Below are positions 40,755 through 63,569 of a stretch of 64,000 nt of DNA, one piece after another. Under the pieces are notes generated by a model, which was not told where the DNA came from, searched no databases, and saw only the letters and a program-made list of their open reading frames with translations. The translations under genes were made by a program, and so were the position numbers. How positions within the stretch are numbered: the stretch's first letter is position 1; each line of letters opens with the position of its first letter. Source of the DNA: an uncultured Alphaproteobacteria bacterium (lineage in GTDB: Bacteria; Pseudomonadota; Alphaproteobacteria; Rhizobiales; Xanthobacteraceae); NCBI GenBank assembly GCA_963765855.1, contig CAVXYQ010000003.1, positions 361,177 to 425,176 of the forward strand, written 5' to 3'.

Positions 40755-40830
40755 GCCGCAATAGCTCAGTTGGTAGAGCACGTCATTCGTAATGACGGGG
40801 TCACAGGTTCGAGTCCTGTTTGCGGCACCA
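40755..40830 (+). tRNA. tRNA-Thr(CGT)
   Basis: GCCGCAA/TTGCGGC acceptor stem, anticodon stem CGTCA-TTCGTAA-TGACG, GGTTCGAGTCC, encoded CCA. Confidence 0.97.
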
Positions 40831-41908: not shown

Positions 41909-42457
41909 CTATTGCAGCGCGCGCCAGATGGTGGCTTCACCGCACTCGTACTCGCGGGCAAGTTCGGCCATGGTCTCCCCGGCGGCGTAGCGCGTGGCGA
42001 TGGTGCGGCGCTGGCTGGGGTCAAGGGCGGAAGGTCGGCCGAACTTAGTGCCCTTGCGCTTGGCGCGGGCAATGCCTTCCTCGCAGCGCTTGCGGATCAG
42101 GCCCCGTTCGAACTCGGCAATGCCGCCCATGATGGTGAGCATCAGCCGGCCAATGTCGGTGGTGGTGTCGCACCATGCTTCGCCCAGCGAGGTGAAGCCG
42201 CACCCAGCAGAGGCGAGGTCGCCTAGGATGTTGTGCAGGTCGCGCGACGATCGGGCGAGGCGATCTAGCTTGGTGACGACTATGGTGTCGCCCGGGAGCA
42301 GCGCACGCTTGAGCTTGTCGAACTCCTTGCGGCCCGTTGTCGATTTGCCGGACGCCTTCTCGCTGAATATCCGCTCGCACCCCGCCCCTTTCAGGGCTTC
42401 AATCTGTCCGGTGTAGTCCTGGCTCTTAGAGCTTACCCGCGCGTAGCCGTACCGCAT
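41909..42457 (-). CDS. Serine recombinase (resolvase/invertase) with C-terminal HTH
   Basis: YGYARVSS catalytic Ser, FSEKASG, VTKLDRLARS, AEFER, GRPS, HTH. Confidence 0.96.
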   Translation of the reverse strand: MRYGYARVSSKSQDYTGQIEALKGAGCERIFSEKASGKSTTGRKEFDKLKRALLPGDTIVVTKLDRLARSSRDLHNILGDLASAGCGFTSLGEAWCDTTTDIGRLMLTIMGGIAEFERGLIRKRCEEGIARAKRKGTKFGRPSALDPSQRRTIATRYAAGETMAELAREYECGEATIWRALQ

Positions 42458-42872: not shown

Positions 42873-43010
42873 GTTCCACCTTTTCCATTTACTTCCATCT
42901 GTTCCAGCTTTTCCATCAAAATAATAACTCTTCTCCTATGATTACCTATCACCGGAGGGTTGTTGGCCAGTGCCACTCAAAAGGTGGAATTCGGTGGAAA
43001 AGGTGGAACA
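42873..43010. other. Candidate replication origin: opposed iteron arrays around an AT-rich core
   Basis: TTCCA at 42874, 42883, 42893, 42902, 42911; AT-rich 42916-42950; GGTGGAA at 42983, 42993, 43002. Confidence 0.62.
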
Positions 43011-43016
43011 TCATGG

Positions 43017-44646
43017 TCAGTCCTCATCTTTCTTTTTCGGTTTGACCCGAATGCCGAGCCATACGCGTGGGCTAGAGCCGGTCTGTCGCCAGCCGGTGAC
43101 GTGACCGAAGCCATCGACACCCTTGAGCCGCTCGCCGAATTTCTTATCGCTCACGCTGCGGAGGACATCTTGGCGATCATTCCGAGCGCTCCAGCTTTCG
43201 AACAGCGTATAGGCTTTCGACTTCACCACCATTCCCGAGTGATCGACCTCGAAGGTTTCCAACACGAACGCGGTGAAGGGGTCACTCGCGGCGAGTAGGT
43301 CTAGCTCAAGCACCCGGCTGGCGCTGGGCTGGATGAAGCGGCCATTGCGGCAAAGATCGCCATATGCGCGAACACAGCGGACCGCGATGCCCGATAGCTC
43401 GGCTCGGAGCTTCGCCCGCAAGTCTGGGTCCTCACGGCCGTAGAAACTCACCGGGAAGTGCAGCTTGATGAACCGCGACGGAAGCACACCGCCCGGATCG
43501 TTGAGGTTGGGGACCTCATTGCTGATTAGCGTGAGCTTGATCCGAAGTTGGCCCTGCCACGGTCCCAGATACTTCCGGCCGATCGTGATGGTGTCCTCGC
43601 CGATGATATTCAGCAATAGCTCGGCGCTGGCGTGACTAATCCCGCCCGGATCATAGCTCTTGCCGAACGCGCGGCCCTTCGGCAATCGAACGTCCGGGAA
43701 CACGCCCACTCGCTTGCCGATCAATGATTGCTGGGAATTCTCGCCCCAATTCCAATTGGCGAAGCTAAGCCCGGCATAGCTTGCACCACCCACAAGATGC
43801 TCCATGACGTGAGCGATGGTGCCCTTGCCGCTACGCTTCTCACCGATGAACATCGCCCCTTTCTGGAAGCGAGTTTCATCGGTCATGCAACACCCCATCC
43901 ATTGTTCGACGAAATCGACACTCTCGACATCGCCCTTGAAAACGTCGAACAAGAATGCTTCCCACGTTGGGCATTCGGCGTCTGGGTCCCAATCAAACCC
44001 TAGCGCATTGTGGACCCAAAGGTCTGGCGTCAGCGGCCGAACTTCTTCGGTCAACATGTTCACCAATGCCATTCTGAAACACCACCCAATCCTTTGCGCT
44101 CTTGCGGGCTTCTAGCCAGATGGGCGGCTGGCATTCGAGCCCCAACGCCAGTTGGCTCTTGAGCGCATCAATCGTTTCGTTCACATGGCGCGGCGTCGGC
44201 TGAAACCGGATCAACTGTTCTCCCGACCGCTTTCGGGAGCCATCGAGGAAGCGGTAAACCTGTTGGCGCATCACTTCATGCGGGACCGCTTCATATACCC
44301 GGCCGCTCCAGCGATAGAATTGATCCTGCCAGAACCATAGTGTGCCCCGGCCATCAAGCATTGCGGTGGAGTGAATAAACTCGCTCGCGTTATCGTAAGG
44401 TGCGCCGGGATTAAGCACAGGGCTTGTGTCGATCGGCCGCGCCTTCGGTTCGGGCTTGGGCTCGGGGGGCGGCACCATAGGCTTAGGCGCTAGCTTGGCC
44501 TCCGCCTCCGCGCGTGCCTCGTTCCCGTAGCGCTTCCCCAGCCGATCCAGCGCTAGCTTCTGTTCCTCCAGCCCGGCTTCGCCAATCGCGTGCACAACCC
44601 GTTCAACATCCAACACCCACAATTTCGCCGTTGCGGTCTCATTCAT
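43017..44646 (-). CDS. P4/D5-family SF3 helicase (phage/plasmid primase C-terminal type), +1 frameshift near 44067
   Basis: D5_N-like WFWQDQFYRWSG...VFQNG.VN...LGFDWDPDAECPTWEAFL; Walker A GEKRSGKGT; LISNEVP; SRFIKLHF. Two ORFs join on removing one base. Confidence 0.87.
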
Positions 44647-45007
44647 CGTCGAAGGCTCCCCAGTGACCGAACCCAAACGGGTCAAGCTGGCGACGGTGCT
44701 CCCGATCGGCCCTGCGAAATTGCTGGTCCATTTCCCAATGCCGCTGAGCCGCAGCGATATCAATCCGAACTTCGCCCGGCCGCAGCGGCGGCAACACGGG
44801 TTCGGGCCGCCGCACCGCGATGTGGGTTCCGCCACGCCGCTGCGCGTTACGATCGGCGGGCGACACAATCACGTCGGCATCGCGGACCACTTCATTGTCG
44901 CGGACGACCACCTTGGGCTTTGGCGGCTTCGGCGGAGGTGGCTTCGGATCAGGACCCAAGATAGAATCCAATAGCGCCTCGACTTCGGCTTTGCGCTCTG
45001 GGGTCAT
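44639..45007 (-). CDS. Hypothetical protein (122 aa, Pro-rich)
   Basis: Stop overlaps the helicase start; start overlaps the upstream stop (ATGA). Confidence 0.7.
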   Translation of the reverse strand: MTPERKAEVEALLDSILGPDPKPPPPKPPKPKVVVRDNEVVRDADVIVSPADRNAQRRGGTHIAVRRPEPVLPPLRPGEVRIDIAAAQRHWEMDQQFRRADREHRRQLDPFGFGHWGAFDDE

Positions 45008-45363
45008 CGCTGCCTCCCCAGCTTGCGTTCAAGTTCCGCGCGGTCCTGTGCGGCCTGTGCGTCTAGCTGGGCTTCGACGTAGCGGTTCTTGCCGGACACC
45101 ATCGGCTGCCGGATCAACCCAGCCGTTCTGTGAGCGCGGCCCGACCTGGGCCGCCGAAGAGGACGCATTGGCCTGCGGAATGATGCCGCTGCGTTCGCGG
45201 GTGCGGCGGTTATCGCGGACGATCGATTGCATCAGGTCGTCGGGCACGGCGCGCCGCGCATCGCGCGTCCACGCTTGCCGTGGCGCGTCAACGCGCCGCT
45301 CAGCGGGCGGAGCGAAGCCATCGGAACCAGGGGCCGTTTCAATTCTTCATCATTCTTCGACAT
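45004..45363 (-). CDS. Hypothetical protein (about 119 aa) with two apparent single-base indels
   Basis: Reconstructed MSKNDEE-IETAPGSDGFAPP..AVPDDLMQSIVRDN..GWVDP-QPMVSGKNRYVEAQLDAQAAQDRAELERKLGRQR*; TGA overlaps the next ATG. Confidence 0.55.
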
Positions 45364-45683
45364 GATTAGTTTCCTTTCCACGGCCAACCCTCGGGCTGGT
45401 GATCGGTGAAGCCGAAGGGGTTGCGATTGTGATCCGGCCTTGTGAACGGTTCGACCAGCGCCCGGGCACCTTTCCTGCGGCAGAGCGATCGCGTTGCCGA
45501 GGGGTTCCTGTTTCATGGTGCCCTTCGCAAGGCCGATGCCATCCTGGTTCGCATGACCACGGCGTTGCCAACGCGGGACACGGCGCCCGGGTTGATTTTG
45601 TTGGCGCGTGGTGATCCGGTGTTCACTGGAGGCCGAACATTTTTATTCGAGGTGATTCCGCCGCCTGATTTAGCTTTTGTCAT
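45364..45683 (-). CDS. Gly/Lys-rich hypothetical protein, frameshifted; 3' end uncertain
   Basis: GGAG RBS then MTKAKSGGGITSNKNVRPPVNTGSPRANKINPGAVSRVGNAV, continuing in another frame as GHANQDGIGLAKGTMKQEPLGNAIAL...PGAGRTVHKAGSQSQ. Confidence 0.5.
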
Positions 45684-45922
45684 TGGATCGATCTCCTTTC
45701 ACTGTGGTTGGTAGTTGATTGGATTTTCATAAGCTGGATGGTCGCTTGCGCGCGAAAGCGGCGATCTGGGCAATGCGCGCTAACGCAAGCCAGCGTCGCT
45801 TCGATAATCGGCTCTGCGCCGGGGCAGTCGTATGCTTCAAGCGGTGCATCTTGATAAAATCGCCATTTGTCACCGCAGATGCACTCGGGCCAAAGCCCGC
45901 AACGGTCGGGTTCACGCTTCAT
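45680..45922 (-). CDS. Cys-rich hypothetical protein (80 aa)
   Basis: CGLWPECIC...CVSAHCPD; overlaps neighbours at both ends. Confidence 0.55.
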   Translation of the reverse strand: MKREPDRCGLWPECICGDKWRFYQDAPLEAYDCPGAEPIIEATLACVSAHCPDRRFRAQATIQLMKIQSTTNHSERRSIQ

Positions 45923-46283
45923 CGGTTTGCTCCCCCGCTTCGGGCTCAGGCCACTCGTTGTTAGCCGTGAGAAGATTGGGCAAGTCATCCACCCGAATGC
46001 CAAGGGGCGGTTCGGGGCCAGTGGGATCAGCCGCCCATGCGGGACCGACTAGCATCGATTGATCCAGCGGCGGGGCGGCGTGAGTGACTGCACCGAACCG
46101 CCCCCCGGCAGCATCGGCATCGGTGGCCGCCTTGGCGTTTGCCATCTCAAAGTAAGTCGTCGGCTCTGGCGCTTCCCGCAGCCGCTGCTCATTGCGGAGC
46201 ACCGCTCGCTTTTCGTCCATCGTGGCGTCGTTGTCGAAGGCGCGGCTAGCGTAGTCACTATGCTGCGTTCCGGTATCGGTCAT
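45912..46283 (-). CDS. Hypothetical protein (123 aa)
   Basis: GGAG RBS; acidic; WAADPTGPEPPLG motif. Confidence 0.7.
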   Translation of the reverse strand: MTDTGTQHSDYASRAFDNDATMDEKRAVLRNEQRLREAPEPTTYFEMANAKAATDADAAGGRFGAVTHAAPPLDQSMLVGPAWAADPTGPEPPLGIRVDDLPNLLTANNEWPEPEAGEQTDEA

Positions 46284-46298: not shown

Positions 46299-46523
46299 CT
46301 ATTTGAGGTTTGGAAAAAGTGCTTTAGCCGCGTTGATCGGTGCGGGTGCGGAGTTCGCGTTGGCCCGTTGAGCGAGCCCGTGAACCACTTCAATCACTGC
46401 GGGGTCATCGCCGAGGCCAGACGAATTCATCCGGGCTTTGAAATCGGCGACGATCTTTGGATCAAGCGATGCGTAAGCGCGGCCAACGGTTGCTAGGATT
46501 TCTTTGGCGCGGGGATGTTTCAT
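46299..46523 (-). CDS. 74-aa protein resembling the C-terminal end of podophage scaffolding proteins
   Basis: GGAG RBS; MNSSGLGDDPAVIEVV...AAKALFPNLK. The similarity is recalled, not searched. Confidence 0.6.
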   Translation of the reverse strand: MKHPRAKEILATVGRAYASLDPKIVADFKARMNSSGLGDDPAVIEVVHGLAQRANANSAPAPINAAKALFPNLK

Positions 46524-46540
46524 GGGGCGAGTCTCCTTTG

Positions 46541-46954
46541 CTATTGCGGTACCGACCACGTTCCGTCGGTGGGATTTGATCGAAGGGTGACAGTGGCGAA
46601 ATTGGTGGCGATTGAAATTGAGGGCACGCCGCTGATTGTCTCGCCCGGCTGTGCGTTGATAGTGATCGGGTTGGCTTGGGCATGCCCGCCTTCGTCAACG
46701 ATGGTTACGGGTACGATGGCGAGGGACGGCGGTACCCCGAGCACGCCCTTGGCCCGGGGCAGCGTCAGCACCACAGCGCCAGCAGCGACGTTGACCTTGA
46801 CCATCGCAACGCCGAACGGAAGCGCTAGGGCCATCGCTGCGGTTATGGAGAGCGACCCGCCAGCCACGTCCACCCACCCGATCGAAGGACCGAGATTGAC
46901 CCTTGTTGATTGGAGCGAGACGCCAGAGCGGTCCCAATCAATCGACGCTGGCAT
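46541..46954 (-). CDS. Beta-rich 137-aa protein, virion fibre/decoration-like
   Basis: VVLTLPRA..VTIVDEGGHAQANPITINAQPGETISG..SISIATNFATVTLRS; Val/Ile/Thr/Gly-rich alternating pattern. Confidence 0.68.
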   Translation of the reverse strand: MPASIDWDRSGVSLQSTRVNLGPSIGWVDVAGGSLSITAAMALALPFGVAMVKVNVAAGAVVLTLPRAKGVLGVPPSLAIVPVTIVDEGGHAQANPITINAQPGETISGVPSISIATNFATVTLRSNPTDGTWSVPQ

Positions 46955-47100: not shown

Positions 47101-47200
47101 CGTGACACACCTCTTTTCATTCTGATCTAAGTCTTGAGTCACTGCTGGCAGAAGTAAACGCTCATGGCTTTCTTCGCGCGGCCTTCAATGCGTGGTGCCG

Positions 47201-47240
47201 AAAAGAAAAGGGCGCTGAAGCGGAATGCCCCAGCGCCCTT
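47201..47240 (-). terminator. Intrinsic terminator after the alpA-DUF3102 unit
   Basis: Minus strand AAGGGCGCTG..CAGCGCCCTT followed by TTCTTTT. Confidence 0.75.
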
Positions 47241-47262
47241 AATCGTCGAGTGTTGGTTGATG

Positions 47263-47695
47263 TTAGTTCGCGATCTTGCGCGGCTTCCCGTTTCTTCCGT
47301 TTATCGCCAAGAAACTTCAGCGCCTGCGCCTGAGAAAACGCAGAGCTCTTCGTTTTGCCGGAAAGGAAAGGAGCTAGAGCAGGTTCGTGCTTGGCAAGGT
47401 GCATGTAGTTTTGTGCGGTCCTGAGAGATAGGCCGCACTCCACCGGGACATAGTCTTGCCAGAGCACGTCCTTGTGGCTTTTCTTGAGATCAGCCTTCAG
47501 CGCGATTAGCTCTTTACCAGCCGCGATTGCTGCGCGGAGGCTATCGGTAAGAGCTTCCAAGCACTCTTGGTGCGCCCGACGAATGTTGGCGACCCGGTTC
47601 TCGACGGTCGATATCACAACGAGTTCGCCTTTTGATGTAGGGGCTGCGGCCTCCGACGCACCAATCGATAGGAGGCGCTTAACAAGCTCGCTCAT
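47263..47695 (-). CDS. DUF3102-like protein (as read it runs to 47162; probable true stop 47263)
   Basis: AIAAGKELIALK...WQDYV...GLSLRTAQNYMHLAK pattern; ATGA overlap with alpA. Removing one G gives a KRKKRKPRKIAN* stop just before the terminator. Confidence 0.68.
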
Positions 47696-47928
47696 TGCTC
47701 CGCCCTCCCGGCGATCATTGCCTGCAAAGCCGCCTCGCATTCACTGCGAAGCCATCGCGAGGTGTTAGGGCCGACCTTGATTGGGGCCGGGTAGCGTTTA
47801 GCGGCAATGCCGCGATAGATGGTTGAGGGGTCGAGGCCGCCGAAGAGACGGCAGACTTCCTTAAGGTCGAGTAGGTCAGTATTGTGTGAGGCCGCACGCG
47901 GCTCCTCACACTGCGGTTGCAGTGCCAT
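47692..47928 (-). CDS. alpA: AlpA family excisionase/transcriptional regulator (78 aa)
   Basis: [44 protein letters not shown]; GGAG RBS. Confidence 0.9.
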
Positions 47929-48023
47929 CGGATCACTCCGTTGTTTGAGAAGCTGGCGGGCAGACCCTACCCTTTTCGGGATCGCTGGGCCTATCGGGGC
48001 GTCACCCCACCTTGTCAGTCCCC

Positions 48024-48025
48024 AC
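48024..48025. other. Abrupt junction between Bradyrhizobiaceae-like and Acidobacteria-like DNA
   Basis: The DUF1553 motif [13 protein letters not shown] (normally followed by ELLDWLA) stops at 48025 and abuts the alpA upstream region. Composition and indel density change here. Confidence 0.85.
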
Positions 48026-50262
48026 GGATGCGAGGCGGCTCGCCTTGCGCCCCAAAATCTTCGGCCGTCTTGACGATGCCCGTGCCAAACAATTCCTGCC
48101 AGAAGCGATTGACCGTGACCCGTGCCGTGAACGGGTTCGATGGGATCGACAATCCATTTCGCTAAACCCAGGCGATTCCGCGGCAGTGACTGCGCCATCG
48201 GCGGCAGCACTGCAGGCACTCCTGGATGCACCTCGTCGCGCATCTGATCGTACTGCCCTCGGTACAACACATGCGCCACCGGCTGCGTGTCAGTCCGTTC
48301 CTGCATCACAAACGTCACCGCACCCCGTCGCGCGATTTCGTCGCGCTCCGCATCCACCTGGTGCAACCGCGCCACCATCTTGCGGGCCCCGGGGTCTGCC
48401 AGATAGGTATACAGCTTCGCTCGCCCCCGCGCCGACCTTTCCGCTGCGTACAGCAGTTCCGCCTGTACTTCGTCGGCGTGGAAATTGAACATCTTGAATC
48501 CCGCAATCTGGGCGCCGGAAATTTCACCTTCGCGGGCGCCGCAATCGGATCCGCTAGAGGATTATTGTCGAGGCCGTCACCATACGTCGGAACAAAAGCC
48601 CGTTCACATACAGCGCTAGTCCTTTCCGGCTGCGGCTGCCGTCATAGGTGAACTGCAAGTGGCACCAAGTGTCTGCTTTCAACTCGTAGTCTGCCGCCGG
48701 CCGCGCCGTGAGGTATTTTCCGTTCGCTTCGAGAGTCAGTTCAGGAGCGCGACCACTCACACCTAACTGAGCCCCCATTAACGCTCAATGTCCAACCATG
48801 GCGCTTTCCGTCTTTGGGCGACTCTTTTTGACTCGCAATCGCAAATCCGCCCTTATCCTTTGGCACATAAACCCAAGCCTCAATCGTGAACGGTTTATCG
48901 ACTTCCGCCGGAACGCTAGGCAATTCCAGGGACGCGTCCTTCTCAAAATGCAAAGCTTTACTGAAGAGGGCTGGCCCATCCACCAGTGTTACGCCTTTTG
49001 GCATTCGACATCCATCTTCGACTCCGCCGTCACCGATTGAGCCGAGTAAACCTCAAACTTCCCGTCGCGCCGACGTTCGCCTGCTTCTCTCTTGGCAATC
49101 GCCGCACGTAGATTGGCTCGTTCCACACTCAAATCAGTCCAACGCTTCCAATCTTCTTGCCTCGGCACCACACGGTCGGCGGTGTGTCCGGAATGTTGCC
49201 ATCCAACGCCAATTGCGTTGTGTTGCGGAAGAACGCAGTCAGCGAATAGTATTCTTTCTGCGCAATCGGATCGAACTTGTGGTTGTGGCACGTCGCACAA
49301 CCCACCGTAAGCCCCAGCCAGACGATCCCAGTCGTGTCCGCGCGGTCTTTTGCGTACATTGCCTCCACTTCCGCGGAATCGAGCCGCCTTCGTTTGTGGT
49401 CACATTGCAGCGATGAAACCGGAGGCAATTTTCTGATTCAAGCGTCGCATTTGGCAGCAAATCGCCAGCCAATTGCTCAATAGTAAATTGGTCGAACGGC
49501 ATGTTGTTGTTGAACGCCCGAATGACCCACTCGCGATACGGCCACATTTCGCGGTAGTTATCGATATGTAGTCCTTGGCTATCGGCATAGCGCGCCGCAT
49601 CCAGCCAATAACGCGCCCGATGTTCGCCATAATGCGGCGAGGCCAACAAACGGTCGACTACTTTCTCATACGCTTTCGGCGATTGTCGTTGACGAACGCC
49701 TCCACTTCCTCCGGCGTTGGAGGTAGACCAGTCAAATCGAGCGTTACGCGTCCGAATGAGCGTCCGGCGATCGGGCTTCCGCATTCGGTTTGAGACCTTC
49801 AGCTTCCATCCGCGCCAACAGGAAGTGGTCAATCGGCGTCCGGACCCAGGCCGCGTCTTTCACGGCAGGCGGATTCTGCTTCACAGGCGGGATAAAAGAC
49901 CAATGCTCTTTCCACTGTGCTCCCTCTTCAATCCATTTACGAAGCGTATCCTTCTGTTCCGCCGTTAATGTCTTATGCGCCATGGCCGGCGGCATGCGAA
50001 AGAGGCGTCTTCCGAAAAAATCCGTTTGATAAGCAGACTCTCGTCAGGCTTGCCTGGAACAATCGGCGCGCCATTCTTGCGAGCCGCTAATGCCCCGTCT
50101 TTTATATCTAATTCGTAGATCGGCCATGCGGGTGCCTTTGTCGGGCCCATGGCAGAGAAAGCAGTTATCGGACAGGATTGGGCGAACTTGGCGCTGGAAA
50201 TCAACGCCGAGAGCCGCTGGGGCCGGGAGACATGCTGAACAGGCAAGATAAGCTCGGCGCAA
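48025..50262 (-). CDS. Planctomycete-type cytochrome c / DUF1549 / LamG / DUF1553 protein, many frameshifts, 3' truncated
   Basis: [86 protein letters not shown]. Confidence 0.86.
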
Positions 50263-50380
50263 TTTAATCGGCTCCTTGGGCAGAAATCAATTTCTTCTGA
50301 GTCTCAAAGTATCAGAACCGAAACCAGGAGAAAAATCCGGCCAAAACGCCACAAAAAAAGTTGACTTGTGCGTCGACTGC

Positions 50381-51051
50381 CTAATTTTTCTTTAAAGAGG
50401 AGGTACCGACCCCGCTAAAAGACCTTACGGACTGGTAGACGACGGCTGCAAGATGGCATCGGTGGCCAAACCCAGGCCAGTCAGGGCCGAGCCGGTCAGC
50501 ATAAAGGTAAGCCAGCCGGCGTTTGTGGTTGTTGTTATCGACGCTGGCGCCAGACGGCAAGGTGCTAAGGCCGTTTGGAAGGACAGACGCCGTTCCCGCG
50601 CTAATTCGGGTGAACAAACCGCCTTTTCGTCAAAAACGTTGAGCGAGCCCGACAGGCCGCAATTTCAACGCGCCCTCATTGATTCTCACAATGGCTTGAG
50701 AAGACGGCTTACCCTGACGTATATCGTACCCGTCAGCATGAACAGAGTAGCCCGTAAGGTTATCAACCTTGGTCGCTCCCTGGTTCAGCGTAAAATGGTC
50801 TCGAAAGATAGTACCAGCGGAGTCAACTCCCAGTACGAGAGCCGCCCCGCTCATCAGATACACTTTACTAGAGGCCTTATCGGTCCGTATGCGCGAACCA
50901 TCGAACAAATTGGCGTTGCCTTCAACTTCGGAACTGTTAAGCATAAATGTTCCGACGGCCGATGCTACGCCGATAGCCGGTGACGCAGCAATCACGTATG
51001 AAATCGTAACTGCCGCAACCACGAGGAGCTTGGGAATTTATTTAGCGTCAT
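50381..51051 (-). CDS. Secreted beta-rich hypothetical protein, frameshifted
   Basis: Signal-like start then SPAIGVASAVGTF..EGNANLFDG; continues across frames. Confidence 0.5.
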
Positions 51052-51140
51052 TATCGGAATCGCTAGGTAGTCGGCCTTTCAGGGTTACAACTTTCCGATT
51101 ATATCGAAATCGATTATGATGATCAAACAGAAGAATTGCG

Positions 51141-52545
51141 ATGAACTATTACGAGGAACTCGGAATAAGATCTGATGCGGACGAAGAGGAAATCCGCAAG
51201 GCGCATCGACGGCTGGTAAAACTCATGCATCCCGACCAACATCGGGACGCGGGTTTGAAGCAGCTTGCCGAAACACAGATGCGCCGCTTGAACTCCATCG
51301 TCGCAACCTTGCTCGACCCTGAAGAGCGGCGCGAGTACGATGAACAACTGCGCGGTGGCGAACCGTCGAACCGGCGCCGCACCAGAGTACATGGCGTTCG
51401 GTGCCGTGGTGGATTGCGAGCACTTTAGGGGCAATTGTACTGACGGTCGGTACTGTTTAGTTTTTTGCAGATCGCATGGGCTCGACGCGCACCCCCCCAA
51501 GAAACCCACCGCCGGACGTCGCAAATATCGCGCCGAACTACACCACAAGCACCGTGACAGTACCGGTACCGGTGCCAGCACAGACACCCTCGGTGAAACC
51601 ACCGGATGAAGTCACCACAGTTCCGGTGCCAACGCCTCAGCAAGTGCCGAATACGACGAAGTCTGAAGAAAAGAAACCAGAACCGGCAAAGCCTGAACCG
51701 CCGAAACCGGAGCCACCAAAGCCTGCACCAGTGGTTAAGACTCCAGAACTGGCCAAGGCAACCAAACCGCCGGAACCAGTGATCAGACCGTTACCACCGC
51801 CGGTTGTTAAGGAAACCGTTAAGAAGCTAGCTGTGGCACCGGCAGAAGCCGCCGGTCATAGCAACGCCAAGGCAGACGTCTGCGCAGCTAAAGCCGCCCG
51901 TGGCCACACATCAGCCACCTCCGTATAAAGCACCGGTGACCACTCCACCGTCGCCGCCTACTACGGTTGCCGTTGCCCCCAGAGAGGAGAAAGGTCCGAT
52001 CGTCTCGACACCTCCCCCGACACCTCCCGTGCCAACCCAGCCTAAGGAACCCGTAGTCATAGCGACCGCAAACCCACCCGCGACCGCTGTTGGATCGTCG
52101 CCCGCTAGGGAGACGTCCCCGCCGGATATTCCCAAAGCTACTTCTACGCCCACACCCGCTGTGGCAACGAATTACCGCAATAACCACGATCCGTTAGAAG
52201 GAGAATGGGTGTACGCGCCCACAGAGCCCGAAAAAACGGAAACCTGGATTCTTTCCGCCGCAGTTCATCCAGCTCAAGCTGGTGAAGGACCCGAACGGGA
52301 TGCATGGAGAATACAGCGCCCATTATCTAGTGGACAAGCCGGTATCGCCAGACGTGAATTTCGTAGTCAAAGCGACCGACCCAACGGCCATGAAATACAT
52401 TTGGACTGCCCCCAATGGGGCACATGGCTGGTTGATGATCGTTGATCTGGAAACGGATATGATGCGGCTTGAATGGAAGGATACCGGCAAGCACAACGGC
52501 CAGCAGCTTACATCAGGACAAGCGACTTTGGTTCGGAAAAACTAG
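51141..52545 (+). CDS. J-domain (DnaJ-like) protein with Pro-rich linker and C-terminal beta domain, frameshifted
   Basis: MNYYEELGI..EIRKAHRRLVKLMHPD..RREYD; PKPEPPKP linker; ends LTSGQATLVRKN*. Confidence 0.72.
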
Positions 52546-52567
52546 CTCGTTTCCTTTTAGACAAATC

Positions 52568-52608
52568 AAAAAGAGGGCGCGTCGAGACCAGACGCACCCT
52601 CTTTTTTT
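52568..52608. terminator. Bidirectional intrinsic terminator
   Basis: AAAAAGAGGGCGCGTC..GACGCACCCTCTTTTTTT between convergent genes. Confidence 0.8.
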
Positions 52609-52653
52609 GCGCTCAGCGAAGCTACTTTGGGACTAGCGAACCGTCGCCGACGT

Positions 52654-53112
52654 CTATTTAATCGCAACGTTGTGCGCGGTAGCGGCGGCGAAGATCCCTG
52701 CCTCGGCGAAATTGCTCGCAGCGAAGGCGAGGTGCCAATCGCGGTGTTTACGGAATAAAATCTGCGGCACCAAGACGCCCGAGGCTATCCCGGCTTTGAT
52801 GGCAACGCCTTTGGCGCCAAAGGTTCCATCTGCGGAAGCCAGAAGGCTGTTGCTTTCCCGCTTATGCCACGAACTGTAGGCATCCGCGGCTGTTCCTGCC
52901 GTCATCGCGGCGATACTGGCGATCCAAATCCGACGCATATGCTGTTCGTGCGGCGTTTCGACAACATTAGCAATTGTCACTTTTGAACTCGGCGCAGGGC
53001 TCGTGAACATACTCTGAGCGTGAATTGCACTGGCTGAACAGAGGAGCGCAACGGCGAGGCCAACTAGCCTAGAAGCTTTCATAATCATTCTCCGGATCGC
53101 AACAGCGATCAC
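52654..53112 (-). CDS. Hypothetical secreted/membrane protein
   Basis: Signal peptide; TAADAYSSW..ESNSLL..FGAKGVAIKAG amphipathic helices. Confidence 0.62.
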   Translation of the reverse strand: MIAVAIRRMIMKASRLVGLAVALLCSASAIHAQSMFTSPAPSSKVTIANVVETPHEQHMRRIWIASIAAMTAGTAADAYSSWHKRESNSLLASADGTFGAKGVAIKAGIASGVLVPQILFRKHRDWHLAFAASNFAEAGIFAAATAHNVAIK

Positions 53113-53161
53113 AGGAATAATCGGCGGAATTGGCCTGCTTCTTTAGAAAAGAGTCAGTCGA

Positions 53162-54200
53162 TTAGCGTTTGTCGCTTATGAAGGCAGGTGAAGTCTTGGG
53201 GGAAGCCAATTCGGCTTGAGCCAGCAGAACATCCGCATCGACCATCATGTGGACAAGCTGCTGGAACGAAGTCTTGGGCTTCCAGCCGAATGTTTCGGGC
53301 TTTAGAGGGATCGCCAAGAAGGTAATCGACTTCGGTGGGGCGGAAATATTGGGGGTCGATTTCAACATACTGTTCCCAATCGAATTGCAGATATTGAAGG
53401 CAATATTTAGGAATTCGCGGACGGAATAGGCTTCGCCCGTGGCGACGACGAAATCGCCGGGTTCTTGCTGCTGCAGCATCATCCACATGGCTTCAACGTA
53501 ATCGCCGGCGAAACCCCAGTCGCGGCGCGCATCGAGATTACCCAGATAAAGCTTCTTCTGTAGGCCAGCTTTGATGCGGCCGAGGGCGCGTGTGATCTTG
53601 CGGGTGACGAAGGTTTCGCCCCGGCGCGGGGATTCGTGATTAAAGAGTATCCCGTTACAAATAAACAGGTTATAAGCTTCGCGATAATTGAAGGCCCACC
53701 AATGGGCGGCGACTTTGGCGACCGCGTATGGGCTGCGCGGGATAAAAGGGCGTCGCTTCGCTCTGCGGGGGCTTGGCGGCACCGAACATTTCGGAAGAAC
53801 CGGCTTGATAGAACCGGACCTGGCGAGTGGAATGGGCCATGTAATCGCGGATGGAATCGAGGAGACGGAGGGTGCCGACAGCGACGGAATCGGCAGTATA
53901 TTCGGGGTTTTCGAAAGACACCTTGACGTGGGACTGGGCGCCGAGATTGTAGACTTCATCGGGCTCGGCAATTTCGAGGATGCGGCGGAGGCCAGTGGCG
54001 TCGGTGAGATCGCCGTAGTGGAGGTTGAGGCGGCGGCCGGCGAGATGGGGGTCCTGATAGATGTGGTCGATGCGGGCGGTATTGAAGCTCGACGAACGGC
54101 GAATAATGCCGTGAACCGTATAGTCCTTGGCCAACAGAAATTCGGCCAAATACGAGCCGTCTTGTCCGGTAACTCCAGTGATAAGGGCGGATTTTTTCAT
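53162..54200 (-). CDS. gmd: GDP-mannose 4,6-dehydratase, frameshifted
   Basis: [71 protein letters not shown]. Confidence 0.96.
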
Positions 54201-54288
54201 AGTTTTGAGGCCTTCAGCCACGGATTAACGCGATATATCAAGATTAACAAACGCGGCACGTTGGCAGCTGATTAGGTATCGTACAGAT

Positions 54289-54603
54289 ATGCGGATCACG
54301 GTCTCACACAATAAATCGAAAGAGCAGATCGTTAAGGCTGTCGACCGTTCTTTTGACGACCTTTTCAAGGGTTCGCCCTTGATACCTATCCAGGTCGCAA
54401 ATGAAAAGCGCGAATGGCAGGGGAGCACTCTGGTCTTTTCCTTCAACGCCACGATGGGCCTGTTGAGCGCGCCGATCAAGGGCACAGTGGCCGTGAGCGA
54501 TCACGATGTGACGATTGACGCCGACTTGGGCTTGCTTGAAAAGCTGTTAGGCGGTGGGATGACAAAAACACTTGAAACCCGCGTGAAGGGTCTTCTCACC
54601 TAA
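54289..54603 (+). CDS. Polyhydroxyalkanoic acid system family protein
   Basis: ITVSHNKSKEQ..WQGSTLVFS..IKGTVAV..VTIDADL pattern. Confidence 0.68.
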   Translation: MRITVSHNKSKEQIVKAVDRSFDDLFKGSPLIPIQVANEKREWQGSTLVFSFNATMGLLSAPIKGTVAVSDHDVTIDADLGLLEKLLGGGMTKTLETRVKGLLT

Positions 54604-54635
54604 AGCGTGCCTTAGGAGTTGCCGATATTCCGTTA

Positions 54636-58827
<4,192 letters not shown>

Positions 58828-58828
58828 A

Positions 58829-59863
58829 TCAAGCGCGCCCGAGCAGCTTTTTCAAATAGCCGAGACTCGCATCCAGCGCCTCGCGCTCTCGCCTTGGGCT
58901 CATCTCCTTTTTCCCATGGCTCCTCTTGATAAGGCTTCCCGCGCTCCGCGATTTCCAGAAATCTCTCAAATTCCCATGCGGGAGTTTTGCGGAAGCAATC
59001 CCAGAATTTCGCTTCTTTAAAAGGCAATGTTCGTGGACCAAAATGATCGATTCTAAAGAAAGGCGCGGCCCTGGACAAAGCTCGATATATTTCTTCACAT
59101 AGCTTCGATGTCTACATTGCCCCGCCCCATCTCTACCCAAGTCACCGACGCACCTTGCGGAACGTCCACACCGCGCTATCGCTTAATGGCTGGTCAAGAC
59201 ATAAGGATGCAAACTTCTAAGGTCAGGTGCGGATCTTCGATGGTCCACAAAGGATTGCCAGAATCCAGACAAACTCCAACAAAGTCTCTGCCGACCGTTT
59301 CAATCAACATTTTCAGCTCCCGGGCCTGCATGTCACCCGCGTGGTTCTCGATTGCAATCTTAATGTTCTTGTCGATTGCTTTCGACCGAACATTCTTCAA
59401 AACCTTAGCGGTATCGTCAATGCGAGCTTCAATGGGACCAGGTTTAATACGGTCTTCGCCACTGCCCAAGACGCAGCGCACAATCTTAGAACCCACGATA
59501 TCGGCCGAATCGATCATCCGCCCTAATTGCTCTTCCGCAGTACCTTCTTTCGGTCTCGAACATTCTGGAAGTGGGGCAGATCGATCTCATGCCGATCTCT
59601 ATTTCGAGCCCAAGTTCGCTGGCTTGGGCGCGCACTTTGCGCAAATGATCGGGTTCCAAGGTTACCGATAAAGCGGATCTCGGAAAAATGCACGACCTGC
59701 ACTTTGCGGGCGGCGCAGTAATCGAGAGCCTCAAGGGGCGTCCATTTTGAGCCCGCAGGCTAAATAGATCGATGCCTATTTTCGCGTTTTCGTATTTATG
59801 AATATCGCCATAGCAGCCTGCCGGTATAGCTGCTCCTATTGCCAGGAATTCGCGTCTCTTCAT
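58829..59863 (-). CDS. Sugar phosphate isomerase/epimerase (AP endonuclease 2 TIM barrel), Tat-like signal, frameshifted
   Basis: MKRREFL signal; KIAIENHAGD, GVCLDSGN, MGRGNVDI. Confidence 0.8.
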
Positions 59864-59943
59864 CTCGTCAGCATCGTATCAGGGTGATTAGATCGCTCGC
59901 CTCTGTCGGAAGGTCTCTTATAAATTGAATCTCTGGGGGAAAC

Positions 59944-60303
59944 ATGGCGACAGAGACACATACTGGCAGACTAAATTTCGGATGACTGTCAAGTTGCGAT
60001 GGACGACGGCACGGTTCTTGGCCGTGTTCGAAAGTCCGACATCCTTGCGCCACGGCTGTTGCGCAGCTATCGCGAAATGGGGAGAAACACAGCCGGTGAC
60101 AGTAACTGGGACGTCGGGCACGGTTGATAATGCTCCGGTGCTTGTTCGTGACCAGCATTCAATGGGCAGTGAGCCTGCGGATTAGTCCACGGCCAGTGCG
60201 TGCCGCTGGCGCCTGCACCTACACCGAGTGCTCGACGCCCGCAGCGGCACCGCCGCCGCCACAACAAAGTAAGAAGTCGGCGAGGAGCCGTTCGAAAAAG
60301 TGA
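59944..60303 (+). CDS. Possible small hypothetical protein, frameshifted
   Basis: GGGGA RBS and ATG 59944; fragments in several frames; TGA overlaps the GTG at 60300. Confidence 0.3.
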
Positions 60304-62719
60304 GACAGTCATTGCGAATCCCAGTCGTTTTACTGCTTGTGCAACAATCGTTTCGGAGTCAGGCGCAAACGCCCACACCGGTGGAGGAGCCACCCGCTCA
60401 GGCACAAAAGCTTTTGCAATATGCGGCACAACTGGAAGAAGATGCCAAGCGCGCGCGATCGGCGGGCCAGCAACATGCGCTCGCCGGCCACCAAGATATG
60501 TCTGCCGAGCAGCTGATCAATCAGCGGACGAGCACCCACAACGGCATCTACGTCGATCAGCCGAAGGTATATGACGATTCGCTGCTCCAGCAAATGCTGG
60601 CGTCGGCACAAAGCCACTTGGCGGCGCTGCAAGGCTTCGATCAAGGGAGCTTGACCAGAGCCATCGGAGGGGTGACGGGAGCGAATCAGCAGATTGCAAG
60701 TTTTGGTATTTCGGGAGGCATGCAGCCACCAGTTCAGCAAACGTCTTTTGGGGCAATATACGTCGCCTTTTCCGGCGCCAAGCGCGGCAGCACCGGGACC
60801 ACCACAACTCTGCCCAGCTCGCTGCACCTTCGGCGTCCGACATTCTGGATGAGCAAGTGCAGCTCACGTCCGAGATCGCAAACTTGCGGCTGCTGCTCGA
60901 AGGCTCGCTGTCCGATCAGATCATGGTCGGGCCGATGAAACGTTCGCCAAGCCGCGCGTGACGCTGGGCTTTCCTCGTGATCATTTCGCCAGAGAAGCGC
61001 TATAAGAATGCGGTGGCGATTGTGGAAGTACTGGTGGAAACGAAAAGCCAGAACGACGCCAGCCGGAATGGAGAACCGCCTTCGATCACGGCTCTGCTGC
61101 CGCAGGAGAAAACTTATAACGTAGCGGCGATCTCGGACAGAAGCGCGTCCTCGGCGCCGGCTTCGCCACGGCGATGGCCGGTGCGGCTGCGCAGCTTCTT
61201 TGGGGCCACAAACAGTACTTCATCGTGAAAGATCAAGACACGCTGGCTGATGCAATTCGAACCACGGATCCGGAACTGCGCTGATCGCTGCCAGATCGCA
61301 AGCCGATCGACAAGCAGCGGTTACGCGCCTTCGCCTGGCAGTTTCGTCCCGTGCTGGGACGTCAATTATGTGCAGGCCGGTGTCGCGGCAAGTATTCGTG
61401 CAACTGGCGTTTCCCGGGCCGCGGTCGCTCGGCGTGAAATCGTTCGGTACCGTGCGCATCCGAACTTACTGGCGCAAAATCGACCGCAAAACCGGTGTGC
61501 TGCGACGGGATCGTGCGGGGTTCGCTGGCACGAGGCGACAACGGCGAGCCCGATCTTGAACTACGACATGCACCAGAAATGGGGCGCCGTGGCTAGCTTC
61601 AATCCCACTGACTATGGAAGACCTAGGCGGTCGGGCAAGATGCTGATCAAACTCGAAGGGCGTTTGCTGCCCGGCACCTATTTGCGTGTAGGGTTCGAAC
61701 ATCATTCAACCCGGCGCAGGCGTGTGCCGTCCGATTCAAAACCACGCGCTTCTGTGGCTAACATTGCCGACCTTGCCACGCTCGAGACGTTCATCATCTC
61801 GCGCGACGGAACAGAAATATCCGCTCAAGAATCAAGCCGGGTGCGATAAACAATTCAGGGTGGATCAGGCGCACGTAAGAGTCACGCCAGCTTGACGATG
61901 CCACGGTCGCTGCTTGAGAGTGCCCATCACCAACTTCATTGCATCGCAAGACATCCCTCCGGTGTTGCTAATCGGCGGAAAAGTTTATCGGTTACTCCGA
62001 CGCGCCCATCGATCGCAAATGCAATCCCGCCGCCGGAACTTGCGTGCTTTCGGTCGCACTGCCCAAGGCGCTGTTGATCGTCGAGTCCCACTGATCTCGG
62101 TAAAGGCGCTGATGCTCGACGAAGATGGTCTGCAAACTCCGCTCGGCGGCCAACCGCACGTTCACGCTATTCCCGCAGAGCCATGTGCCCGAACAAGCTG
62201 GTCCTCCTCGGTCACGATCAAACCACCGCAACCTATCTGGTGTACGGCCATGACCTCAACCAAACGAAAATCATCTGGCCTGCGCGCAATGCCGATCCCG
62301 CCTGCCCACCCAACCAGCTGTGCCTGCAGCCCATCAGCACCGACGCCAGACGATGGATCGTTGAAGCTCGCTGAAGGTGCCCCTCGATATGGTCAAAGAG
62401 CCGGAACGGTCTCGTCATTCGCAAAGGCCGAGCCTGCAGTGACCATGCCTGCGGTGCCTGCTCTGCCGTATCCGGCACACCCTCGTCCGCAGCGCCGCGA
62501 CCGAAGAAAGTACCGGTCCCAAGTTCAAAGAGCGAATCGTGGTGGGCGCGGATGAGGGTACCATCGTAGGCCAAAAGCTCGATCGGTCATTACTGCCGTT
62601 ACGTTTGCGGTAAACCGCTCACCATCGCCAGCCGAGACGCCACGGCTCTTAAAATCAGCGGTTTAGCCGCGACCGGTGCTTCGGCGGTCGCGAAGACCCA
62701 GGACATTGTCACTTTTTAA
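60300..62719 (+). CDS. Large secreted hypothetical protein, many frameshifts; end approximate
   Basis: Signal-like start; IYVDQPKVYDDSLLQQML, PPSITALLPQEKTYNVAAI, LIKLEGRLLPGTY fragments in shifting frames. Confidence 0.5.
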
Positions 62720-63551: not shown

Positions 63552-63569
63552 TAAAGGTATAGCTCTCAT

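What the first reader, a model, noticed from the sequence alone, without database searches (positions are those of the whole stretch)
46299..46523. 74-aa mini-protein resembling only the capsid-binding tail of a podophage scaffolding protein (possible capsid-size redirector)
Seen: own GGAG RBS, and sequence ..FKARMNSSGLGDDPAVIEVVHGLAQRANANSAPAPINAAKALFPNLK. From memory this matches the C-terminal pattern of epsilon15/BPP-1-like scaffolds (L..TGLGNHP..+..F...G.....AA..LYG/P). Known: SaPI CpmB is a small scaffold mimic, and P4 Sid is an external scaffold; both shrink helper capsids. Inference: a functional analogue in an alphaproteobacterial satellite, which would also point to the helper type.
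Basis: inference. Interest (0 to 1): 0.62.

Follow-up and report, generated by a model that had tools for sequence, protein, structure and literature searches.

The report
Satellite mini-protein copying phage scaffold tail
A roughly 9-kb phage-parasite-like island encodes a 74-residue protein that is a true copy of only the last domain of the head-assembly (scaffold-position) protein of epsilon15/BPP-1-type short-tailed phages, so it probably docks onto a helper phage's coat protein to hijack or block capsid assembly, though this is untested.

Summary
The ORF is real: minus strand 46299-46523, GGAG ribosome-binding site, 74 aa. It is under strong purifying selection. In 10 distinct DNA versions, 22 of 24 variable sites are third codon positions and there is one amino-acid change.

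A profile of the mini-protein finds 114 proteins (best E 3e-12 against 1.84 billion). Nearly all are 190-260 aa and match at their extreme C-terminus. These belong to phrog_458, the family of epsilon15 gp6 and BPP-1 Bbp18. Their gene lies between the portal and the GP7-type major capsid protein.

The reverse search, with a full-length profile, hits only this ORF in its own genome (E 2e-12). The mini-protein keeps a basic three-helix domain and the terminal A-x-A-L-[FY]-P-N-L hook. It lacks the acidic N-terminal two thirds and has a shorter tether than all 93 full-length relatives measured.

The host island has alpA, a P4-type primase and an inverted-repeat candidate origin, with an integrase in relatives, and the window holds no head genes. 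The adjacent 137-aa gene copies the N-terminal anchor of the same phages' tail fibres. Two sister islands without the mini-protein carry 64-66-aa ORFs ending in the same hook.

Function (CpmB/Rcm-like coat-protein docking) is inferred. No helper phage was found. That the phage family is a scaffold is also an inference.

The parts
46299..46523 (-). 74-aa mini-protein gene (stop codon included). It is homologous to the C-terminal domain of the phrog_458 / epsilon15 gp6 / BPP-1 Bbp18 head-assembly proteins: a basic three-helix domain, a short tether and the terminal hook AAKALFPNLK.
46532..46539 (-). Ribosome-binding site AAAGGAGA (GGAG at 46533-46536), 9 nt upstream of the ATG.
   Evidence: read from the sequence
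46541..46954 (-). 137-aa gene directly upstream. It is homologous to about 140-aa stand-alone proteins and to the N-terminal about 130 aa of tail-fibre proteins in the same podophage contigs, so it resembles a fibre anchor domain only.
45912..46283 (-). 123-aa acidic protein (pI 4.2) directly downstream, with its own AAGGAGA site. It is an orphan restricted to this island family and is also present in sister islands that lack the mini-protein.
47692..47928 (-). AlpA-like small DNA-binding protein at the head of the gene train. The start at 47928 is assumed. The frame runs on into foreign sequence beyond about 48025.
47162..47740 (-). 192-aa protein. Its L002 counterpart has weak DUF3102 similarity. 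This module varies between islands.
43017..44868 (-). P4-family primase/helicase (D5_N, DUF5906, TIGR01613). It is split into two frames in the window but is a single 578-aa ORF in sister island L106. A related contig lacks one base at 44063.
42873..43009 (.). 31-nt inverted repeats 75 nt apart, downstream of the primase gene: a candidate replication origin.
   Evidence: lead from note e1-5205452
41909..42457 (-). Serine recombinase (resolvase) in the cargo end of the island; also present in sister islands.
40755..40830 (+). tRNA-Thr (CGT), marking the left border of the island. GC falls from about 0.70 to about 0.60 just after it.

Best explanation
The 74-aa protein is a satellite-encoded mimic of the tail end of a phage head-assembly scaffold.

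Shown:
- It is a domain-sized homologue of the C-terminal about 85 residues of the protein encoded between the portal and the GP7-type major capsid protein in epsilon15/BPP-1-like podophages.
- It keeps the basic three-helix domain and the nearly invariant terminal hook.
- It lacks the acidic N-terminal two thirds.
- It has a shorter tether between domain and hook than any full-length relative measured.
- It is carried by a roughly 9-kb island (integrase, alpA, P4-type primase) whose part in the window holds no capsid genes.

Inferred:
- During infection by a helper of this phage type, the mini-protein docks through the hook and basic domain onto the inner face of the helper's coat protein, in competition with the helper's own scaffold.
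- Because it lacks the scaffold's N-terminal part and has a shorter tether, it changes how capsomers join.
- The most likely outcome is small capsids that fit the satellite's genome but not the phage's, as CpmB and Rcm do in staphylococcal islands.
For: Homology:
- The profile search gave 114 hits, best 3.4e-12, nearly all at the C-terminus of 190-260-aa proteins over query residues 4-73.
- Those proteins belong to phrog_458 (E 1e-24 to 1e-38).
- They match epsilon15 gp6 and BPP-1 Bbp18.
- The reverse profile hits only this ORF in its own genome (E 2.2e-12).
- The alignment shares GRA..L.DPK.VADFK..M..(T/S)G.G(D/N)(D/N/H)PA.I and AA.AL(F/Y)PNL.

Scaffold role of the phage family:
- The gene order is portal - Bbp19-like - this protein - GP7 capsid protein - Bbp16.
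- The capsid protein matches its Pfam model from residue 22-23, so it has no delta domain.
- No Ser, His, Cys, Asp or Lys is invariant or nearly invariant in 26 full-length members.
- There is no Pfam or NCBIfam protease hit.
- The N-terminal part is acidic (pI 4.5) and the last 90 aa are basic (pI 9.1-9.7), like the mini-protein (pI 9.9).

Functional constraint:
- 22 of 24 variable sites are third codon positions.
- It is the most conserved gene of the island.
- It is retained in a divergent island with different neighbours.

Satellite context:
- Relatives carry an integrase and AlpA.
- The island has a P4-family primase and inverted repeats.
- The window has no portal, capsid-protein, Bbp16 or Bbp19 gene.
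- The adjacent gene copies the tail-fibre N-terminus of the same phages.
- Two sister islands lacking the mini-protein each have a 64-66-aa ORF at a syntenic place ending in the hook motif. That motif occurs 74 times in 697,000 residues of the phage contigs' ORFs, only at scaffold C-termini.

Other support:
- Tether length is 28 (32 in P0002) against 36-47 in 93 full-length relatives.
- The AlphaFold model (pLDDT 77.6) has three helices, a linker and a terminal helix followed by five residues.
- Precedents: CpmB (72 aa) shares a C-terminal motif with the 80alpha scaffold and competes for the coat protein (PMC5644958). Rcm alone redirects capsid size (PMC12409344).
Against: - No experiment or solved structure exists for any member of the phage family. 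All isolate records call it protease or hypothetical.
- No helper was found. The own genome has no full-length copy. Only 1 of 400 genomes sampled from the same family has one, and none of 14 from the same genus. This scaffold clade was not detected in 185,579 species genomes.
- The closest phage scaffold domain is only 45% identical.
- The mini-protein was not found in IMG/VR viral contigs, so there is no sign of packaging.
- Structure searches gave nothing significant.
- The direct profile link to epsilon15 gp6 is weak (hhalign E 4.8e-4, probability 32%).
- Dimerisation, which CpmB needs, cannot be assessed.
- The window's copy of the island lacks its integrase end and shows frame breaks in other genes.
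Confidence: 0.55

Rival explanations
1. Pure assembly poison. The mini-protein binds the helper's coat protein through the same hook. Because it lacks the rest of the scaffold, it simply blocks productive procapsid assembly. This would be dominant-negative interference or defence, with no small capsids and no benefit to satellite packaging.
For: - It has only the docking domain and no N-terminal oligomerising or portal-recruiting part.
- The neighbouring 137-aa gene is likewise only the anchor part of a tail fibre, which also looks like a decoy.
- No small terminase or other packaging gene was recognised in the island.
- The mini-protein is absent from viral contig collections.
Against: - The backbone (integrase, alpA, P4-type primase) is that of elements that are themselves packaged.
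- Known scaffold mimics (CpmB, Rcm) both interfere and resize.
- The systematically shortened tether suggests a geometric role rather than mere blocking.
Confidence: 0.2
2. The phage family is not a scaffold. It could be a head-maturation or portal-associated factor, as the 'protease' label would suggest. Its C-terminal domain would then bind some other partner, such as the portal, Bbp19 or DNA. The mini-protein would target that partner instead of the coat protein.
For: - All database names say protease or peptidase.
- There is no structural or experimental evidence for scaffold function in the papers searched.
Against: - There is no protease domain and no conserved catalytic residue.
- The 'endoprotease' label traces to similarity with a Salmonella LT2 'putative endoprotease'.
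- The gene position, the acidic low-complexity N-terminus, the basic C-terminus and the delta-less capsid protein fit a scaffold.
Confidence: 0.12
3. Mimic of the N-terminal oligomerisation domain of the MucR/Ros silencer. The island would use it to lift MucR silencing of foreign DNA, by analogy with truncated H-NS antagonists.
For: The only marginal hits in genomes of the same family were N-termini of MucR/Ros-type proteins (E 0.003-0.007 per genome). A pairwise BLASTP gave 37% identity over 52 aa, E 2e-7 for that single comparison.
Against: - No MucR protein is among the 114 database-wide hits, which are nearly all proteins of phage-scaffold length.
- Pfam ROS_MUCR does not match.
- The similarity does not cover the C-terminal hook.
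- The scaffold match is about nine orders of magnitude stronger after correction for database size.
Confidence: 0.03
4. Functionless remnant of a decayed prophage scaffold gene.
For: It is a truncated homologue, and the window's island copy shows frame breaks in other genes.
Against: - There is strong purifying selection and constant length in 11 contigs.
- It has its own ribosome-binding site.
- The gene order is not that of a phage, and no head genes lie nearby.
- The frame breaks elsewhere coincide with single-base differences from a related short-read contig, so they are probably assembly errors.
Confidence: 0.02

Closest known systems
SaPI1 CpmB with the phage 80alpha scaffolding protein gp46
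   Same: - It is a small helical protein (72 aa against 74 aa here) encoded by a capsid-less satellite.
- It shares the C-terminal coat-binding motif of the helper scaffold.
- The terminal architecture is a helix followed by a short hook.
- It competes with the scaffold for the coat protein (PMC5644958).
   Different: - There is no sequence similarity. A PDB sequence search at E<=10 did not return CpmB chains.
- CpmB shares only a short motif (RIIK) with its helper scaffold. This protein is homologous over its whole length to a roughly 85-residue scaffold domain.
- Host (Alphaproteobacteria-like), helper type (epsilon15/BPP-1-like podophage) and satellite backbone (P4-type primase) all differ.
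- CpmB's dimerisation domain and its partner CpmA have no recognisable counterpart.
- Function is untested here.
SaPIpT1028 Rcm
   Same: It is a single satellite protein that mimics a multi-helical helper scaffold, binds the major capsid protein, and is necessary and sufficient for size redirection and interference (PMC12409344). The present protein likewise copies a multi-helix scaffold domain rather than only a motif.
   Different: It is a staphylococcal siphophage system, and sequence similarity to Rcm was not tested. No binding or size data exist here.
epsilon15 gp6 / BPP-1 Bbp18 family (phrog_458, annotated 'protease')
   Same: It is the source of the domain. There is true homology over residues 4-73, with the same conserved motifs, the same terminal hook and the same basic charge.
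   Different: - The mini-protein lacks the N-terminal 110-180 residues: a low-complexity acidic region, the PEKY..F..PEG motif and central helices.
- It lacks the EG..V.G.GPS..GQ linker.
- It is encoded in an island, not between portal and capsid genes.
- It does not reach the phrog_458 model on its own.
P4 Sid and PLE TcaP (external size-determining scaffolds)
   Same: They are satellite proteins that remodel hijacked helper capsids (PMC7552001 and PMC10945586, listed).
   Different: They act from outside the shell and are not copies of the helper's internal scaffold. The PDB sequence search returned no such chain.

Membership tests
phrog_458 / epsilon15 gp6 / BPP-1 Bbp18 head-assembly protein, C-terminal domain | Significant profile similarity to family members, in both directions | tested here: met
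   Forward: 114 hits, best 3.4e-12, in 1.84 billion proteins. The hits belong to phrog_458. Reverse: the full-length profile hits this ORF at E 2.2e-12, profile positions 141-193.
phrog_458 / epsilon15 gp6 / BPP-1 Bbp18 head-assembly protein, C-terminal domain | Conserved C-terminal motifs: M-x-x-(T/S)-G-x-G-(D/N)-x-P and the terminal A-x-A-(L/M)-(Y/F)-P-N-L hook | tested here: met
   The mini-protein has MNSSGLGDDP and AAKALFPNLK. M32, G36, G38 and P71 are invariant in 50 sequences.
phrog_458 / epsilon15 gp6 / BPP-1 Bbp18 head-assembly protein (full-length member) | Full architecture: acidic low-complexity N-terminus, PEKY..F..PEG motif, central helices, 190-260 aa | tested here: not met
   It is 74 aa. 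The match starts at the domain boundary, and the upstream reading frame shows no real similarity. The PHROG model itself gives no hit at E<=0.1.
phrog_458 / epsilon15 gp6 / BPP-1 Bbp18 head-assembly protein (full-length member) | Gene lies between the portal and the GP7-type major capsid protein | tested here: not met
   The window has no portal, Bbp19, capsid-protein or Bbp16 gene. The neighbours are island genes.
Satellite internal scaffold mimic (CpmB / Rcm kind) | Encoded by a mobile element that has integration and replication genes but no capsid genes | tested here: met
   Relatives L002 and L107 carry an integrase and AlpA. The island has a P4-family primase. It has no head genes. The integrase end is missing from the window itself.
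Satellite internal scaffold mimic (CpmB / Rcm kind) | Shares the C-terminal coat-docking end of the helper's own scaffold | tested here: inconclusive
   It shares the end of a phage scaffold-position family. No specific helper is known, and docking of that end to the coat protein is inferred, not shown.
Satellite internal scaffold mimic (CpmB / Rcm kind) | Binds the helper major capsid protein and changes capsid size or blocks helper assembly | not testable with these tools
   This needs complex prediction or experiment. Only monomer prediction was available.
Satellite internal scaffold mimic (CpmB / Rcm kind) | Sequence homology to CpmB | tested here: not met
   The PDB sequence search at E<=10 returned only an unrelated lipoprotein carrier. 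Fold searches found no scaffold or CpmB chain.
P4-like / PICI-like phage satellite (the host element) | Integrase, AlpA-type regulator, primase-helicase replicon with adjacent origin, size about 8-15 kb, tRNA-linked site | tested here: met
   Size of about 9 kb was estimated from L107 plus the window.
P4-like / PICI-like phage satellite (the host element) | Induction by, and packaging in particles of, a helper phage | not testable with these tools
   No helper is identified. The mini-protein was not found in IMG/VR contigs.
MucR/Ros N-terminal domain | Match to the ROS_MUCR profile | tested here: not met
   There was no Pfam hit at E<=0.1. Only marginal per-genome hits were seen.

The most novel reading that the evidence does not exclude
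The island belongs to an undescribed family of soil and peat alphaproteobacterial satellites that parasitise uncultured epsilon15/BPP-1-like podophages. These satellites would use interchangeable, domain-sized copies of helper structural proteins:
- a scaffold-tail mimic, either the 74-77-aa three-helix-plus-hook form or a 64-66-aa hook-only form in sister islands, which sets a smaller capsid;
- a tail-fibre anchor domain, which acts at the tail.

It would be the first capsid-redirecting satellite system for podophage helpers outside the Staphylococcus, Enterobacterales and Vibrio models.
Probability: 0.3. Interest if true: 0.75.

Novelty: new variant of a known kind. Interest (0 to 1): 0.6.

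Why it matters
Capsid hijacking by scaffold mimicry is documented experimentally only for staphylococcal islands (CpmB, Rcm). The marine satellites of Alphaproteobacteria described so far appear to lack capsid-remodelling genes (PMC9618062).

This case offers a cleanly defined, testable candidate in a different bacterial class and against a different phage morphotype. The mimic is a whole homologous domain, and its one systematic difference from the helper-type scaffolds is a shorter tether. That is a simple structural variable that could explain how curvature, and so capsid size, is set.

It also re-labels a widespread phage family. The 'endoprotease' of epsilon15, BPP-1 and many Xanthomonas, Pseudomonas, Vibrio and Klebsiella podophages is probably the scaffolding protein, and its likely coat-docking end can now be located.

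Finally, it names the helper type for an island family whose helpers are so far seen only in metagenomes.

Tried and rejected
**Direct searches with the 74-aa protein alone**
- Pfam, PHROGs, NCBIfam and PDB sequence searches gave nothing.
- tblastn against 50,697 phage records gave only chance-level hits.

**Structure**
- The shallow AlphaFold model (pLDDT 58) and the deeper one (pLDDT 77.6) had no significant Foldseek match in BFVD or PDB.
- The best BFVD match is an unnamed 247-aa viral protein (E 0.43, probability 0.87, TM 0.59). Its length fits the family but the match is not significant.
- Profiles of the full-length family and of the C-terminal domain found no solved structure.

**Search for a helper**
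- The own genome has no phrog_458 hit and no full-length scaffold.
- Two scans of 185,579 species genomes found no other mini-protein and confirmed no member of this scaffold clade.

**Other 'mini' hits in the profile search**
- The four I looked up (P0004, P0038, P0041, P0107) are not satellite mini-proteins.
- P0041 is a miscalled start inside a full-length scaffold ORF. P0038 and P0107 lie in fragmented or frameshifted phage head modules. P0004 sits 72 nt from a contig end and is probably truncated.
- So true mini-proteins seen so far are only the P0001 cluster and P0002.

**MucR N-terminal mimicry**
- Considered and rejected as the main reading.

**Decayed prophage**
- Rejected.

**Literature**
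- No paper in the library calls epsilon15 gp6 or Bbp18 a scaffold or tests it.

**GcrA-type zinc finger**
- This idea for the small Cys-rich ORF upstream came from another scan note. There was no Pfam support.

**Sequencing runs**
- None is the source sample. They show related island variants in peat, bog, moss and soil metagenomes.

Full report
**1. The observation**

The ORF lies on the minus strand at 46299-46523 and encodes 74 aa: MKHPRAKEILATVGRAYASLDPKIVADFKARMNSSGLGDDPAVIEVVHGLAQRANANSAPAPINAAKALFPNLK. AAAGGAGA lies at 46532-46539, directly after the stop codon of the upstream gene and 9 nt before the ATG.

The gene is present, at the same length, on 9 metagenome contigs (protein P0001, one I24L difference). 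A 58%-identical 77-aa variant (P0002) lies on two further contigs. A tenth contig, L107, came from the metagenome scan.

- Across the window and the 9 contigs there are 10 distinct nucleotide sequences with 24 variable sites. Of these, 22 are third codon positions.
- The surrounding DNA is only 82-92% identical between these contigs.
- The proteins of the other island genes are 35-94% identical, against 98.6% for this one.

It is therefore an expressed-looking, strongly constrained gene and not a chance ORF.

**2. What it is homologous to**

Searches with the single sequence found nothing in Pfam, PHROGs, NCBIfam, PDB or isolate phage genomes.

A profile of the three mini-protein sequences, scored against 1.84 billion representative proteins, found 114 proteins at E<=1e-3.

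- Apart from P0001 itself, the best are 3.4e-12 to 1e-9.
- Nearly all are 190-260 aa long and match query residues 4-73 at their extreme C-terminus.
- All ten that I scanned belong to phrog_458 (E 1e-24 to 1e-38) and have no significant Pfam domain (only two sub-threshold hits).
- One of them (P0009) finds epsilon15 gp6, SPN1S, phiV10, Xanthomonas CP2, BPP-1 Bbp18 and related Pseudomonas, Vibrio and Klebsiella podophages by tblastn.
- In epsilon15 the gene lies between portal gp4/gp5 and capsid protein gp7.
- In metagenomic phage contigs the order is portal (PF12236) - Bbp19-like (PF25181) - this protein - GP7 capsid protein (PF20911) - Bbp16 cement protein (PF21190).

The reverse test also works. 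A profile of 26 full-length members, run on the window's own 7.1-Mb genome, hits only this ORF (E 2.2e-12, profile positions 141-193). Plain tblastn of two phage scaffolds against the window gives 2e-12 and 1e-9.

The alignment shows these features.

- The mini-protein starts three residues before the domain boundary (IGPKLQQIQADIGRAY in the phage protein, MKHPRAKEILATVGRAY in the mini-protein).
- It shares the motifs DPK.VADFK..M..(T/S)G.G(D/N)xPA.I.
- It lacks the EG..V.G.GPS..GQ linker.
- It ends with the family's hook (AA.ALYPNLP in the phage proteins, AAKALFPNLK here).

The direct profile comparison with that single sequence is weak, however (E 4.8e-4, probability 32%). The link is carried by the metagenomic members.

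**3. Is the phage family a scaffold?**

No record calls it that. The names are protease, endoprotease, peptidase or hypothetical. The epsilon15 note shows the label was copied from a Salmonella LT2 'putative endoprotease'. I found no paper that tests it and no solved structure.

The case for a scaffold is indirect but consistent.

- The gene sits at the canonical scaffold position.
- No protease domain is detected.
- No Ser, His, Cys, Asp or Lys is invariant or nearly invariant among 26 members.
- The N-terminus is low-complexity and acidic (pI about 4.5) and the last 90 aa are basic (pI 9.1-9.7).
- The capsid protein matches its Pfam model from residue 22-23, so it has no delta domain to act as a built-in scaffold.

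That scaffold C-termini dock on the coat protein is established for 80alpha (PMC5644958). From my own knowledge it also holds for P22 and phi29. For this family it is an inference.

**4. Structure**

With a 50-sequence alignment, AlphaFold gives pLDDT 77.6 (87-91 over residues 11-50). The model has helices at 6-18, 22-35 and 41-58, a less confident linker, a short helix at 63-69 and five terminal residues. That end resembles the 'helix and hook' described for the 80alpha scaffold and CpmB in form only.

Foldseek found no significant match in BFVD or PDB.

I measured the distance from the G.GDxP motif to the aromatic residue of the hook. It is 28 residues in the mini-protein and 32 in P0002. 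In 93 full-length relatives it is 36-47, with a median of 43. The mini-protein is basic (pI 9.87).

**5. Context**

The gene lies in an island that begins right after tRNA-Thr(CGT) at 40755-40830, where GC drops from about 0.70 to about 0.60. All core genes are on the minus strand. Running from right to left in window coordinates, they are:

- an AlpA-like protein;
- a 192-aa protein (weakly DUF3102-like in relatives);
- a small Cys-rich ORF;
- the 137-aa gene;
- the mini-protein;
- an acidic 123-aa orphan;
- several small genes;
- a P4-family primase/helicase (D5_N, DUF5906, TIGR01613);
- 31-nt inverted repeats 75 nt apart;
- a 123-aa gene;
- a serine recombinase;
- two cargo ORFs.

Relatives L002 and L107 show a tyrosine integrase upstream of alpA. 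In L107, chromosomal genes lie beyond it. Joined with the window, this gives an element of about 9 kb. That figure is my estimate.

The window holds no portal, capsid-protein, Bbp16 or Bbp19 gene. epsilon15 and BPP-1 have T=7 heads (PMC9698820). Isolate genomes of this type are 38-45 kb, and several of the related viral contigs are 48-52 kb. The island is therefore about a fifth of a helper genome.

**6. Further comparative evidence**

(a) The 137-aa gene just upstream is homologous, over its full length, to about 140-aa ORFs in the same phage contigs (L043, E 4e-13). It also matches the N-terminal about 130 aa of larger proteins there. Two of those carry tail-fibre PHROG domains (L058, 847 aa; L048, 430 aa). 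Two adjacent island genes are thus domain-sized copies of structural proteins of one phage type.

(b) Two sister islands (L105, L106) were found through the 137-aa protein. They share the 137-aa and 123-aa genes, the primase and the resolvase; L105 also shows the alpA and an integrase. Both lack the mini-protein. In L106 the 137-aa and 123-aa homologues are adjacent.

- Each has a 64-66-aa ORF at a syntenic place between two other shared genes.
- These ORFs end in ...PAQALYPNLPSAKETTR and ...LAAAIYPHLAKAE....
- The hook pattern occurs 74 times in 697,000 residues of six-frame ORFs of the phage contigs, always within 25 residues of the C-terminus of an ORF, consistent with the scaffold genes.
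- The two ORFs share nothing else with each other, so this point is suggestive rather than proven.

(c) The P0002 variant sits in a different neighbourhood, with the Cys-rich ORF upstream, no 137-aa gene and a different downstream gene. The mini-protein therefore behaves as a retained, movable module.

**7. Mechanism**

Shown: homology to the scaffold-position protein's C-terminal domain, strong constraint, a satellite-type carrier, a shortened tether and loss of the N-terminal part.

Inferred: the protein docks on the helper's coat protein in place of the helper scaffold and alters assembly.

- I rate docking to the coat protein at about 0.75.
- I rate size redirection as the outcome at about 0.55 overall.
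- Plain poisoning of assembly is the main rival (0.2).
- The possibility that the phage family acts on another partner stands at about 0.12.
- The MucR-mimic idea and the pseudogene idea are weak.

**8. Limits**

- No helper was found. The own genome has no full-length copy.
- Only 1 of 400 genomes sampled from the same family has one, and none of 14 from the same genus.
- This scaffold clade was not detected in 185,579 species genomes, although 304 IMG/VR contigs carry it.
- The closest phage domain is 45% identical.
- The mini-protein is not in IMG/VR contigs.
I could not search the rest of the genome for a GP7-type capsid gene.
- Other notes of this scan report similar candidate scaffold mimics in other genomes. 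They are unverified and I did not use them as evidence. They do suggest the theme is recurrent.

**9. Verdict**

This is a new variant of a known kind, the satellite internal scaffold mimic.

Noticed in passing
window 46541-46954 (-): The 137-aa gene next to the mini-protein is a stand-alone copy of the N-terminal (virion-proximal) part of tail-fibre proteins of the same epsilon15/BPP-1-like phage contigs. It matches a 141-aa ORF in L043 over its full length (E 4e-13) and the first 130 aa of the 430-aa and 847-aa fibre proteins in L048 and L058. The island may also act on the helper's tail.
   Followed up: partly
L106 2646-2840 and L105 12358-12558: Two sister islands that lack the mini-protein each carry a 64-66-aa ORF at a syntenic place whose C-terminus holds the scaffold hook motif (PAQALYPNLPS; AAAIYPHLA). 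In the phage contigs the motif occurs only at scaffold C-termini. This may be a second, hook-only form of scaffold mimic.
   Followed up: partly
window about 47930-64000: Beyond the alpA gene the sequence changes character: GC is 0.53-0.59 against 0.65-0.72 in the core. It holds Planctomycete/Acidobacteria-type genes (PSCyt1, PSCyt2/DUF1549). Many genes are broken over several frames, including GDP-mannose dehydratase at 53162-54221 and a histidine kinase at 56019-56872. The island's integrase end is missing. The window lies about 5 kb from the end of its contig. This looks like a chimeric or error-rich contig end.
   Followed up: partly
window 44063, 44649-44657, 45106-45466, 47066: A related island contig from a public run lacks single bases at exactly the places where the window shows frame breaks: the split primase, the 118-aa and 106-aa genes, and the Cys-rich ORF. 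In sister island L106 the primase is one 578-aa ORF. The window's frame breaks are therefore probably assembly indel errors. None lies in 46299-46523.
   Followed up: partly
phage records (epsilon15 5224-5940, BPP-1 bbp18 and many others): The phrog_458 family is annotated 'protease/endoprotease/peptidase' throughout GenBank and PHROGs. It has no protease domain and no conserved catalytic residue, and it sits at the scaffold position upstream of a delta-less capsid protein. The annotation is probably a propagated error.
   Followed up: partly
window 45912-46283 (-): The 123-aa protein downstream of the mini-protein is very acidic (pI 4.2) and is an orphan of this island family. It is kept next to the 137-aa gene even in islands without the mini-protein. 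Its role is unknown.
   Followed up: partly
L002 about 865-905: Just upstream of the integrase in relative L002 there is the reverse complement of the 3' part of a tRNA (T-arm, acceptor stem, CCA) that differs from tRNA-Thr(CGT). Relatives of the island therefore appear to use a different tRNA site, with the integrase next to the partial repeat.
   Followed up: no
L106 10168-11503; L105 3645-4508: The sister islands carry different cargo: an MmeI-type restriction-modification enzyme in L106 and an ArdC-like antirestriction protein in L105.
   Followed up: no
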